Shown: positions 59,601-61,217 of the stretch, piece after piece | How positions within the stretch are numbered: position 1 is the stretch's first letter | Layout of the letters: every line of letters starts with the position of its first letter | Assembly (NCBI GenBank): GCA_000165345.1 | Contig: CM000432.1 | Coordinates: 672,001 to 736,000, forward strand | Direction: 5' to 3' | DNA: 64,000 nt | The notes under the pieces: model-generated | Told to the model about the DNA's origin: nothing | The model's input: only the letters and a program-made list of their open reading frames with translations | Database searches by the model: none | Made by a program: the position numbers and the translations under genes

Positions 59601-61217
59601 ATGAAAAGCTTGGGATCATTTTTGTTTGCATTTGGAGCTTTGGTATCAGTTTCTAAAGTCAATGCACAGCACGGACAACATTTGCATGGGCATGGCCACG
59701 GCCACCATGTAATTCCAACAAATGTAAATTATTATGAATCAAATACAGACGTTCTCGCTCCAATTATTGAATGCCCACAAGGATACACAATTAGTGGGAA
59801 GCAATGCACAAGGACAATATTTGTTCCAAGTTCAGTAAATTGTCCAAAGAAGTATGAGCTGAGAGAAGGACAATGTGTCAGGAAAGAATACAGCTCAGCT
59901 GTCCTAGTTTGCGAACCAGGATTTGAATTGATTGGTGGCCGTTGCATTACTAGACAGTCAGTACAGGCTGAGAGAATCTGTCCGCATGGATTTGCATTGG
60001 CTGGAGAAGAGTGTATTTCTATGAAGGAATTTGCGGCTGATTATAGATGCCCACCAGGTTTTCAAAGAAAGCATCAAGAATGTGTTAGAGATATCTCAAC
60101 AGACCCATTGGAAAGTTGCCCTCCTGGTTTTGAGCCAGTTGATAAACATGGGAGGATGGTTCAGTGTACTAGAACAGAAACAGTAGATGTTATCCTCTCT
60201 TGTAAACAAGGATATGAACTTAGAGGCGATATTTGTGTGTTAGTTGACATTATAAGACCCAACTTAAAGTGTGAAAAGGGTTTCCAACTTAAGGATGGAG
60301 TTTGCAATAGACTTCTCCAGGTTGATTCTCTTTCACAGTGTCCAGCAGGTTCCATCCCAAGAGGCCACAAATGTATTGTAATAACGAACGTTCCAATTAT
60401 TCCTTCTTGTCCATCAGACTTTGAATTGGATTCAACAGGGACGAGATGTATTCGTATGGATGAGAGACCAATCATCCAGGAGTGCCCACAGGGATTCAAA
60501 CTCGAATCTGGGCAATGCGTAAGCATTTCAAATGTAGAACCAGAGGTTTCTTGCCCACCTGGCTCTACTCCCCATGGGCACCACAACAAGTGCTTCAATA
60601 TCATTACAGAACAACCGATGATGCAATGTCCTCATGGTTATATTGAAAGTGGAAACGGAGAATGTATTTCAGAGAAAATGAAACCAGCTTCTGTAGATTG
60701 TCCAATCGGTTTTTCAAGACAAGGAAGCCAGTGCGTAAAGATTATCTCAGAAGTGCCGTCTAAGAGTTGCCCATCAGGTATCTTAAAGAATCATAGATGC
60801 GTTTCATTTGAGACAGCTCCAATGATTGGTTTCTGTCCAGATGGAAGTGAAGTCCCACCAAGCGGCCTATGTACAGCAACAACAGGAAAACCATTTTCAT
60901 TAAAGTGCCCACACGGTTATAATCTTGAGAATGGACAATGCATTCAAGAAATTGTTACTAAAACTAGTTATATGTGCCCATCAGGTACAAGCGATGGCCA
61001 CGGAAAATGTGTATCTCTTGCTGCGACGCCTGCATTGCCAGTATGCCCACACGGAATGGTTCTCACCCCAGATGGTTCTCAATGTGCTAAAACTGAGCAT
61101 ACAAAAATATCTCTTTCTTGCCCAGATGGATATCACTTTAATCACGGAAGATGTGAAAGCAAAATACACGAGAAGCACCATGGAAAAAATACTAGGACTG
61201 CAAATAGCCACTATTAA
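59601..61217 (+). CDS. Secreted cysteine-rich repeat protein, oocyst-wall-protein (COWP)-like. It has a signal peptide, a His-rich stretch, and about 20 tandem 25-27-aa repeats of the form C-P-x-G-[FY]-x-L-x-x-G-x-C.
   Basis: The signal peptide is MKSLGSFLFAFGALVSVSKVNA, followed by QHGQHLHGHGHGHHV. Repeats run CPQGYTISGKQC, CPKKYELREGQC, CEPGFELIGGRC, CPHGFALAGEEC, CPPGFQRKHQEC and so on to CPDGYHFNHGRC. The Cys spacing resembles COWP-family repeats. Confidence 0.7.
   Translation: MKSLGSFLFAFGALVSVSKVNAQHGQHLHGHGHGHHVIPTNVNYYESNTDVLAPIIECPQGYTISGKQCTRTIFVPSSVNCPKKYELREGQCVRKEYSSAVLVCEPGFELIGGRCITRQSVQAERICPHGFALAGEECISMKEFAADYRCPPGFQRKHQECVRDISTDPLESCPPGFEPVDKHGRMVQCTRTETVDVILSCKQGYELRGDICVLVDIIRPNLKCEKGFQLKDGVCNRLLQVDSLSQCPAGSIPRGHKCIVITNVPIIPSCPSDFELDSTGTRCIRMDERPIIQECPQGFKLESGQCVSISNVEPEVSCPPGSTPHGHHNKCFNIITEQPMMQCPHGYIESGNGECISEKMKPASVDCPIGFSRQGSQCVKIISEVPSKSCPSGILKNHRCVSFETAPMIGFCPDGSEVPPSGLCTATTGKPFSLKCPHGYNLENGQCIQEIVTKTSYMCPSGTSDGHGKCVSLAATPALPVCPHGMVLTPDGSQCAKTEHTKISLSCPDGYHFNHGRCESKIHEKHHGKNTRTANSHY

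What the first reader, a model, noticed from the sequence alone, without database searches (positions are those of the whole stretch)
59601..61217. Secreted His-rich, Cys-rich protein with about 20 tandem CP-x-G-[FY]...C repeats (COWP-like)
After a clear signal peptide the protein opens with QHGQHLHGHGHGHH and ends HEKHHGKN. In between lie about 20 degenerate 25-27-aa repeats, each starting CP(x)G(F/Y) and ending with a second Cys (two Cys per repeat, about 40 Cys in total). Oocyst-wall proteins of Cryptosporidium and coccidia have this architecture. The His-rich termini could add metal or pH-dependent cross-linking. At 538 aa it is much smaller than COWP1, so it may be a minor wall component or an unclassified member.
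Basis: partly seen in the sequence, partly recalled or inferred. Interest (0 to 1): 0.55.

Follow-up and report, generated by a model that had tools for sequence, protein, structure and literature searches.

The report
Known oocyst wall protein COWP6

Summary
The ORF at 59601..61217 (+) is real. It encodes 538 aa: a signal peptide, a His-rich stretch (QHGQHLHGHGHGHH), 40 cysteines in 20 two-Cys units, and a His-containing tail.

It is cowp6 (cgd4_3090) of Cryptosporidium parvum. Published COWP6 CRISPR and cloning primers, the antibody peptide (aa 518-533), the length (538 aa), Cys content (7.43%) and mass (58.616 kDa) all match the window exactly.

CpCOWP1 is a strong sequence relative (E 1.6e-90). 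A profile built from COWP1 type I repeats scores COWP6 at 159 bits, against 9.7 or less for shuffles. COWP6 has no type II spacing. It reads as 2 units plus 6 type I repeats of 3 units each.

- The period is 23 aa, not 25-27.
- The protein runs 8 residues past HEKHHGKN.
- It is neither unclassified nor minor. Published work ranks COWP1, 6 and 8 as the most abundant COWPs and places COWP6 in macrogamont puncta and the inner oocyst wall.

An all-beta model finds no similar solved structure. Already known; low interest.

The parts
59601..61217 (+). cowp6 (cgd4_3090) coding sequence, single exon, 538 codons plus TAA
   Evidence: ORF. The exact protein is encoded on C. parvum assembly GCA_048859185.1 CM109964.1. 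The published COWP6 primers, guide RNA and antibody peptide all match.
59601..59666 (+). Signal peptide, aa 1-22 (MKSLGSFLFAFGALVSVSKVNA)
   Evidence: Hydrophobic maximum at the N-terminus. The preprint 10.64898/2026.05.05.722909 expresses aa 23-538 as the signal-peptide-truncated protein, and its forward primer starts at 59667.
59667..59708 (+). His-rich N-terminal stretch of the mature protein, aa 23-36 (QHGQHLHGHGHGHH, 7 His of 14)
   Evidence: It resembles the His-rich spacers between COWP1 type II repeats. It is not conserved in most relatives.
59709..59771 (+). Cys-free spacer, aa 37-57, before the first repeat
   Evidence: Most of it has pLDDT below 50 (residues 1-49) in the model.
59772..59909 (+). 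Units 1-2 (aa 58-103): a partial type I repeat, matching the second and third units of the COWP1 type I repeat
   Evidence: The register comes from the three-unit super-period and from where the COWP1 type I profile starts its matches.
59910..61154 (+). Units 3-20 (aa 104-518): six complete type I repeats of three 2-Cys units each (about 69 aa, 6 Cys)
   Evidence: Cys gaps alternate about 11 and exactly 12. The three-unit periodicity has permutation p of about 0.001-0.003. Full-length matches of the COWP1 type I profile begin at units 3, 6, 9, 12 and 18, and also at units 2, 8 and 17. The model is all-beta, with pLDDT about 90 over residues 50-250 and 330-520.
61155..61214 (+). C-terminal tail, aa 519-538 (ESKIHEKHHGKNTRTANSHY, 4 His). 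Together with C518 it contains the published antibody epitope, aa 518-533
   Evidence: pLDDT is below 50.
59325..59347 (+). Two TTTGGCG (E2F-like) elements, the first inside the palindrome TTGGCGCCAA, about 255-275 bp upstream of the ATG. Candidate promoter elements.
   Evidence: these are 2 of only 5 occurrences on both strands of the 64-kb window. PMC3734150 reports E2F-like motifs over-represented upstream of COWP genes. Function is inferred, not tested.
59200..59205 (+). GCACAC (the 'AP2_2' motif of PMC3734150), about 400 bp upstream of the ATG
   Evidence: The hexamer occurs 8 times on both strands of the window, so this could be chance.

Best explanation
This is cowp6 (cgd4_3090) of Cryptosporidium parvum chromosome 4, one of the nine Cryptosporidium oocyst wall proteins.

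The protein enters the secretory pathway through a 22-residue signal peptide. [quoted passage not shown] Each module is CP-x-G-[FY]-loop-C followed by an invariant 11-residue strand-forming linker. Three modules make one COWP 'type I' repeat of six Cys.

Inferred, not shown: the two Cys of a module bridge its beta-hairpin, as Cys5 and Cys6 do in the C-terminal hairpin of EGF-like domains. This would make a protease- and chemical-resistant strut. Remaining or reshuffled thiols, and perhaps the His-rich ends, could link it to other COWPs; a preprint reports binding to COWP4.
For: Identity.
- The neighbouring S27a protein is an exact match to C. parvum entries on a contig of about 1.10 Mb.
- The 538-aa protein is encoded on C. 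parvum assembly GCA_048859185.1.
- The COWP6 reagents of PMC12548878 (S1 Table) map exactly: the guide 20-mer at 61211-61230; the tagging homology arm at 61158-61214 with only the designed Ser536 AGC-to-AGT change; the other arm and both check primers.
- The preprint 10.64898/2026.05.05.722909 gives 'COWP6 (cgd4_3090; 538 aa), 7.43% Cys, 40 residues' and the peptide CESKIHEKHHGKNTRT at aa 518-533. All match.
- The computed mass of 58.616 kDa equals the COWP6 entry in the wall proteome of PMC9508764.

Family.
- CpCOWP1 (P0020) is hit at E 1.6e-90 with 34% identity.
- COWP1 type I spacing is 11,12,11,10,11,10. A profile of it scores COWP6 at 159 bits, against 9.7 or less for shuffles.
- The three-unit super-period has p of about 0.001-0.003.

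Structure.
- AlphaFold2 with 41 relatives gives an all-beta model with mean pLDDT 78.5 and about 90 in the arrays. Each unit shows a short strand, a turn, a long strand and a short strand.
- The 11-residue linker is kept in 92.8% of 723 linkers in relatives, while the loops vary in length.

Biology, from papers.
- The tagged protein is in the oocyst wall, immuno-EM places it in the inner layer, and expression is seen only in macrogamonts, in puncta like wall-forming bodies (PMC12548878).
- It is among the most abundant COWPs.
- It is reported in the inner layer and suture, and to bind COWP4.
Against: Nothing argues against the identity.

The mechanism is only partly shown:
- No disulfide map exists, and I could not read model coordinates to measure Cys-Cys distances, so the within-module pairing is an analogy.
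- pTM is low (0.35), so the overall shape of the rod is uncertain.
- No cowp6 knockout turned up in the papers read.
- Deletion of the similarly abundant cowp8 is tolerated (PMC12548878), so the structural contribution may be redundant.
- A preprint reports COWP6 in sporozoites as a secreted host-binding protein. If so, 'wall strut' is not its only role. This conflicts with the macrogamont-only reporter signal.
Confidence: 0.95

Rival explanations
1. COWP6 is mainly, or also, a secreted adhesin. [quoted passage not shown] The wall would then be only one of its sites.
For: The preprint 10.64898/2026.05.05.722909 reports antibody signal on the sporozoite pellicle and in gliding trails, ELISA detection in culture media, and binding of His-tagged recombinant protein to fixed HCT-8 cells with an apparent Kd of 37 nM. 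It cites proteomes in which COWP6 is more abundant in sporozoites than in walls.
Confidence: 0.25
2. It is an unclassified or minor COWP-like paralogue, distinct from COWP1-9.
For: It is small next to COWP1 (538 vs about 1,620 aa). The first word-indexed homologue search returned only 4 distant hits and no name, and the exact sequence carries no name in the protein collection.
Against: It matches the published COWP6 reagents, peptide, length, Cys content and mass exactly. COWP6 is among the three most abundant COWPs.
Confidence: 0.01
3. The repeats belong to an unrelated Cys-rich family (EGF, EB module, granulin, furin-like/GFR-CR) and the likeness to COWPs is superficial.
For: There are weak Pfam hits to cEGF (17.8 bits) and EB (16.6 bits). 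cEGF is also hit by 10 of 41 relatives and by COWP1 (51.7 bits summed, with no single significant stretch). Some database entries name COWP1 'oocyst EB module wall protein' or 'GFR-CR domain containing'. A moth protein with CPxG...C repeats scores E 1.6e-61, which shows that the motif recurs outside the family.
Against: Both Pfam hits are below their curated cut-offs. They cover only positions 5-20 of the 24-position cEGF profile, that is one hairpin and not a six-Cys EGF domain. There are two Cys per 23 aa, no CC pairs and no gap shorter than 10. The match to COWP1 runs collinearly over aa 57-517 at E 1.6e-90. There is no structural match to EGF, EGFR or granulin chains and no PDB sequence relative.
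Confidence: 0.03

Closest known systems
COWP6 / cgd4_3090 of Cryptosporidium parvum (nine-member COWP family; studied in PMC12548878 and bioRxiv 10.64898/2026.05.05.722909)
   Same: Identical. It has 538 aa, 40 Cys (7.43%) and a mass of 58.616 kDa. The epitope at aa 518-533, Ser536 encoded by AGC, and all published primers and the guide map to the window.
   Different: Nothing.
[quoted passage not shown]
   Same: Signal peptide. The same CP-x-G-[FYT]...C two-Cys unit, grouped in threes as the six-Cys type I repeat. 34% identity, E 1.6e-90. His-rich stretches. Located in the inner oocyst wall and in wall-forming bodies (papers).
   Different: COWP1 is about three times longer. Its type I linkers are 11, 9 and 9 residues (65-aa repeat), against a uniform 11 in COWP6 (69-aa repeat). 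COWP1 also has 8-9 type II repeats (Cys gaps 12,11,8,5,12) separated by His-rich spacers, which COWP6 lacks entirely.
Coccidian OWPs (TgOWP1 of Toxoplasma, called the COWP6 homologue in PMC7389338; the Besnoitia besnoiti 'oocyst wall protein' P0056; EnOWP6 of Eimeria nieschulzi, PMC4514997)
   Same: About 500-540 aa with a signal peptide and type I repeats only. P0056 has exactly 40 Cys with the same alternation of about 11 and 12.
   Different: Identity is only about 28%. There are no His-rich ends. [quoted passage not shown] I could not retrieve the TgOWP1 sequence, so orthology rests on the literature.
OWP-domain proteins of chromerids and gregarines (Chromera velia P0037, Vitrella P0001/P0015, Selenidium P0074, Blabericola P0030, Piridium P0034)
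   Same: The same unit and 11-residue linker. Several are about 530-560 aa with 40 array Cys. Woo et al. 2015 (PMC4501334) already noted OWP arrays in Vitrella.
   Different: The chromerids Chromera and Vitrella are free-living algae without an oocyst. Function is unknown and identity is 25-30%.
cEGF (Pfam PF12662), the C-terminal beta-hairpin of complement C1r-like and calcium-binding EGF domains
   Same: The local motif C-P-x-G-[FY]-x-L-x-x-(D/G)-G-x-x-C and a predicted hairpin. This is the basis for inferring a disulfide within each unit.
   Different: The hit is below the Pfam cut-off and covers only part of the profile. COWP units lack the other four Cys of an EGF domain and are joined by an 11-residue strand linker. 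No structural match was found.

Membership tests
Cryptosporidium oocyst wall protein (COWP/OWP) family | N-terminal signal peptide and no trans-membrane segment | tested here: met
   There is a hydrophobic N-terminus with ...VNA|QH. No later 19-residue window reaches the N-terminal value or 1.6 on the Kyte-Doolittle scale. No dedicated signal-peptide predictor was available. The papers treat aa 1-22 as the signal peptide.
Cryptosporidium oocyst wall protein (COWP/OWP) family | Cysteines at regular intervals, about every 10th-12th residue (PMC12548878) | tested here: met
   40 Cys; 34 of 39 gaps are 11 or 12; none of 20,000 shuffles reached that.
Cryptosporidium oocyst wall protein (COWP/OWP) family | Type I repeats: six regularly spaced Cys per repeat (PMC4514997) | tested here: met
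   COWP1 type I spacing is 11,12,11,10,11,10. A profile of 8 COWP1 type I repeats scores COWP6 at 159.2 bits against 9.7 or less for 200 shuffles. The three-unit super-period has p of about 0.001-0.003 and the same unit order, CPxG[ST] / CPxG[FY] / CPxGFxLxxGQC. Difference: all linkers are 11 residues, so the repeat is 69 aa rather than 65.
Cryptosporidium oocyst wall protein (COWP/OWP) family | Type II repeats: shorter, six Cys, alternating with His-rich stretches. Present in COWP1 and not required for membership, since the TgOWPs lack them (PMC4514997). | tested here: not met
   COWP6 has no 8 or 5 Cys gaps, unlike the COWP1 type II pattern. The type II profile gives only partial matches over the shared C-x11-C-x10-C part. 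COWP6 is therefore a type-I-only member.
Cryptosporidium oocyst wall protein (COWP/OWP) family | Significant sequence similarity to named family members | tested here: met
   CpCOWP1: E 1.6e-90, 320.8 bits. A Cryptosporidium andersoni/muris 'oocyst wall protein': 4.0e-59. Besnoitia, Chromera and Vitrella 'oocyst wall protein': 5e-42 to 3e-36. Caveat: repeat composition inflates these scores, as a moth protein also scores 1.6e-61.
Cryptosporidium oocyst wall protein (COWP/OWP) family | Made by macrogamonts, stored in wall-forming bodies and incorporated into the oocyst wall | not testable with these tools
   From the literature only. COWP6-mScarlet is seen in macrogamont puncta and then in the wall, and immuno-EM places it in the inner layer (PMC12548878). 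It is detected in purified-wall proteomes.
Cryptosporidium oocyst wall protein (COWP/OWP) family | Disulfide-bonded, within and between molecules | not testable with these tools
   The papers assume this. I found no disulfide map, and the prediction tool does not expose model coordinates.
COWP6 (cgd4_3090) specifically | Sequence identity with the published gene | tested here: met
   The guide RNA, both homology arms (one carrying the single designed base change), two check primers, two cloning primers, the epitope at aa 518-533, the length of 538 aa, 40 Cys and 58.616 kDa all match.
EGF-like domain (including cEGF PF12662 and EB module PF01683) | Six (EGF) or eight (EB) Cys per 35-55-aa domain, and a score above the Pfam gathering cut-off | tested here: not met
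   cEGF scores 17.8 bits against 26.6 and EB scores 16.6 against 24.3. Only the hairpin part of cEGF aligns. There are two Cys per 23-aa unit. No EGF-containing chain appears among the fold matches.
Granulin | A 12-Cys motif containing adjacent CC pairs | tested here: not met
   There are no adjacent Cys and the smallest gap is 10. Pfam gives no granulin hit even at E up to 10.

The most novel reading that the evidence does not exclude
The COWP6-type array may be a length-defined strut rather than a loose string of repeats. It has 20 position-specific two-Cys modules (40 Cys), and a C-x11-C linker that never varies in COWP6 and is kept in 93% of linkers in relatives. The same unit count recurs in about 500-560-aa proteins from coccidia, gregarines and free-living chromerids.

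Probability: 0.15. Interest if true: 0.4.

Novelty: already known. Interest (0 to 1): 0.1.

Why it matters
The oocyst wall lets Cryptosporidium survive chlorination and spread through water, and the COWPs are its main known protein components. This gene is already part of that picture: it is named, abundant, tagged and localised, and it is now being studied functionally. The scan finding adds no new biology.

- A clean parse of the protein: signal peptide, His-rich stretch, 2 units plus 6 type I repeats of 3 units, and a tail.
- The linker length is invariant while the loops vary.
- The 20-unit layout recurs far outside Cryptosporidium.
- No solved structure resembles the array. An experimental structure with a disulfide map of a type I repeat would therefore be useful for the whole family.

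Tried and rejected
- The word-indexed homologue search gave only 4 distant, unnamed hits and missed all the paralogues. The exact sequence is not in the named protein collection. Identity therefore had to come from the neighbouring S27a gene, the exact-match contig look-up and published primers.
- Pfam, the PDB sequence search with the single protein, and the PDB search with the 41-sequence profile gave nothing significant.
- AlphaFold2 with a 5-sequence alignment gave a poor model (pLDDT 53.6), which I did not use. The 41-sequence alignment gave a usable one.
- The afdb50 library was not available, so I could not recover named AlphaFold models of other COWPs.
- Templeton 2004 (PMC321576) and Chatterjee 2010 (PMC2805294) are not held. 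The type I and II definitions come from PMC4514997 and from the COWP1 sequence itself.
- Tandem Repeats Finder found no DNA-level repeat.
- On reading P0004, I guessed that an OWP-like repeat was fused to a Cu/Zn-SOD-like domain. Pfam found no family at all at E up to 0.001, so I dropped it.
- His-rich termini as a family feature: rejected. Only 5 of 46 relatives have them.
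Full report
**Observation**

The ORF at 59601..61217 on the plus strand is real and encodes 538 aa. The window has about 30% G+C and is packed with long ORFs.

The protein begins with a hydrophobic leader, MKSLGSFLFAFGALVSVSKVNA. This is followed by QHGQHLHGHGHGHH, a 21-residue Cys-free spacer, an array that holds all 40 cysteines, and a 20-residue tail, ESKIHEKHHGKNTRTANSHY.

The cysteines form 20 units. The two Cys within a unit are 10-16 residues apart, mostly 11. 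The second Cys of one unit and the first Cys of the next are exactly 12 apart in all 19 cases. 34 of 39 gaps are 11 or 12, whereas the best of 20,000 shuffles reached 11. Within the unit, position 2 is Pro in 17/20, position 4 is Gly in 18/20, and position 5 is Phe or Tyr in 14/20.

- The period is 23 aa, which is the only self-similarity peak, not 25-27.
- The protein runs eight residues beyond HEKHHGKN.
- The strict motif C-x-x-G-[FY] fits 12 units, not all of them.

The units are old and diverged. DNA identity between units averages 41%, and Tandem Repeats Finder finds nothing.

**Identity**

The neighbouring gene (58446..58916) is the ubiquitin-S27a fusion. It is identical to Cryptosporidium parvum entries on a contig of 1,104,417 bp. 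The 538-aa protein is encoded exactly on C. parvum assembly GCA_048859185.1, on a 1.107-Mb chromosome, and in many sequencing-run assemblies.

The paper that tagged all the COWPs (PMC12548878) states that cowp6 (cgd4_3090) was targeted with a synonymous change of Ser536 from AGC to AGT. In the window, residue 536 is Ser and its codon is AGC. The paper's S1 Table maps onto the window as follows:

| Reagent | Window position |
|---|---|
| COWP6 guide 20-mer | 61211-61230 |
| 57-nt homology arm, differing only at the designed base | 61158-61214 |
| Other homology arm | 61222-61271, minus strand |
| Check primer | 60852-60877 |
| Check primer | 61504-61532, minus strand |

A 2026 preprint (10.64898/2026.05.05.722909) describes 'COWP6 (cgd4_3090; 538 aa) ... 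7.43%; 40 residues'. Its antibody was raised against CESKIHEKHHGKNTRT (aa 518-533), and its cloning primers start at codon 23 and end at the stop codon. All of this matches. The computed mass of 58.616 kDa equals the COWP6 entry in a wall proteome. The gene is cowp6.

**Family test**

An exhaustive phmmer search of 1.84 billion cluster representatives found 733 relatives at E ≤ 1e-3 and 86 at E ≤ 1e-30. One of them, P0020 (E 1.6e-90, 34% identity, query 57-517 aligned), is CpCOWP1 itself.

I read the two COWP1 repeat types from its sequence:
- Type I has Cys gaps of 11,12,11,10,11,10, giving 65 aa and six Cys, in agreement with PMC4514997.
- Type II has gaps of 12,11,8,5,12, followed by a His-rich spacer.

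COWP6 has only the 11/12 alternation and no 8 or 5 gaps. A profile built from eight COWP1 type I repeats scores COWP6 at 159 bits, against 9.7 or less for 200 shuffles. The type II profile matches only over the part it shares with type I.

The units of COWP6 are more alike at lags of 3, 6 and 9 than at other lags (permutation p about 0.001-0.003). The three phases correspond to the three units of the COWP1 repeat: CPxG[ST], then CPxG[FY] with a variable loop, then CPxGFxLxxGQC. COWP6 is therefore signal peptide, His-rich stretch, two units, six type I repeats, and a tail.

- cEGF and EB score below their Pfam cut-offs, and only the hairpin part of cEGF aligns.
- Granulin-type CC pairs are absent.

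**Structure and likely mechanism**

With 41 relatives as the alignment, AlphaFold2 gives an all-beta model. Mean pLDDT is 78.5, rising to about 90 in the arrays and falling below 50 in the leader, the His-rich stretch and the tail. Each unit shows a short strand, a tight turn at the Gly-rich position, a long strand that starts next to the second Cys and runs through the linker, and a short strand before the next Cys. pTM is 0.35, as expected for a rod whose long-range shape is not fixed.

Across 40 relatives the linker is 11 residues in 92.8% of 723 cases, while loop length varies. The linker strand is therefore the constrained element, and the hairpin loops are free to differ.

The motif resembles the Cys5-Cys6 hairpin of cEGF. 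The two Cys on either side of a linker sit at opposite ends of an extended strand. From these two points I infer that each unit is stapled by its own two Cys. This is an inference and has not been measured.

The published biology supplies the rest:
- Expression is seen only in macrogamonts, in puncta like wall-forming bodies.
- The protein is released after fertilisation.
- Immuno-EM places it in the inner wall layer (PMC12548878).
- It is abundant in purified walls.
- It is reported in the inner layer and suture, and to bind COWP4.

The same preprint claims a second life as a secreted host-binding protein of sporozoites. This conflicts with the reporter data of PMC12548878, and I list it as a rival or additional role.

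**His-rich ends**

They are real: 7 of 14 residues at the mature N-terminus and 4 of 20 in the tail. They recall the His-rich spacers of COWP1. Only 5 of 46 similarly sized relatives have His-rich tails, so this is a lineage-specific decoration. Whether it binds metal or senses pH is untested.

**Context**

The neighbours are housekeeping genes: S27a, two alpha/beta hydrolases, a class-V aminotransferase, a DEAD-box helicase, ALG11 and a RhoGAP. A giant polyketide synthase lies at the left edge of the window. There is no cluster of wall genes.

About 255-275 bp upstream of the ATG lie two TTTGGCG boxes, one of them inside the palindrome TTGGCGCCAA. A GCACAC lies about 400 bp upstream. E2F-like and GCACAC motifs were reported as over-represented upstream of COWP genes (PMC3734150).

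**Wider family**

Many relatives of 490-560 aa have exactly 40 Cys in the same alternation: 14 of 47 complete-looking hits have 40 Cys and 9 have 41. Named examples are the Besnoitia and Chromera 'oocyst wall proteins' and sequences from Selenidium, Blabericola and Piridium. Their cysteines align column for column with those of COWP6.

OWP arrays in chromerids, and large OWP families in early-branching coccidiomorphs, were already reported (PMC4501334, PMC7522995). The recurrence of the 20-unit layout is the one thing here that may deserve a second look. It may partly be a selection effect of searching with a 20-unit query.

**Verdict**

The gene is the known COWP6, abundant rather than minor, and already localised experimentally. 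Novelty: already known. Interest: low.

Noticed in passing
window 1..31502 (+): A giant ORF, listed as 15..31502 (10,495 aa). No in-frame stop precedes position 15, so it runs off the left edge of the window. It is a modular type I polyketide synthase with repeated KS, AT, DH, ER, KR and ACP domains and a terminal NAD_binding_4 reductase. From memory it fits CpPKS1 of C. parvum chromosome 4; I did not verify this.
   Followed up: partly
window 58446..58916 (+): A ubiquitin-ribosomal protein S27a fusion whose ubiquitin half is unusually divergent. It scores only 31 bits on Pfam ubiquitin, although it still ends in GG before the S27a part. It is conserved in several Cryptosporidium species.
   Followed up: no
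window 53026..56851 (-): Two paralogous Abhydrolase_2 (phospholipase/carboxylesterase-like) genes, at 53026..54018 and 55727..56851, flank a class-V aminotransferase at 54209..55525.
   Followed up: no
window 59325..59347 and 59200..59205: Two TTTGGCG E2F-like boxes, one in the palindrome TTGGCGCCAA, and a GCACAC lie upstream of cowp6. They fit the motifs reported upstream of COWP genes in PMC3734150. The two boxes are 2 of only 5 TTTGGCG/CGCCAAA sites in the 64-kb window.
   Followed up: partly
P0027 (Mythimna separata, 833 aa): A moth chromosomal protein made of near-identical CPPGQERDGETNEC / CPDGY...C repeats scores E 1.6e-61 against COWP6. In Pfam it hits CPW_WPC and TNFR_nem. Either the hairpin motif recurs independently or E-values for Cys-repeat proteins overstate homology. 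This is a caution for the family counts.
   Followed up: partly
P0018 (4088 aa, JGI metagenome, 138-kb contig) and P0019 (3386 aa, Logan): The best-scoring relatives of COWP6 (711 and 465 bits) are giant unnamed proteins built from many OWP-type units. They have no Pfam match. Their organisms are unknown.
   Followed up: no
relatives of about 500-560 aa (P0031, P0032, P0037, P0039, P0047, P0056, P0061 and others): Exactly 40 Cys in 20 units recurs in relatives from coccidia, gregarines and chromerids. The Cys columns are collinear with COWP6, and the 11-residue linker is kept in 93% of cases. This could point to a length-defined rod.
   Followed up: partly
literature on COWP6: Two recent reports disagree on stage specificity. 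The endogenous mScarlet tag is seen only in macrogamonts and oocyst walls (PMC12548878). An anti-peptide antibody detects COWP6 on sporozoites, in gliding trails and in culture supernatants (bioRxiv 10.64898/2026.05.05.722909).
   Followed up: no
window 61655..63955 (-): This 766-aa ORF is only part of a called gene of 1,631 aa that continues beyond it. The gene has a weak guanylate-cyclase Pfam hint in the public gene call, but the ORF itself has no Pfam match. It is rich in Ser and Asn low-complexity sequence.
   Followed up: no
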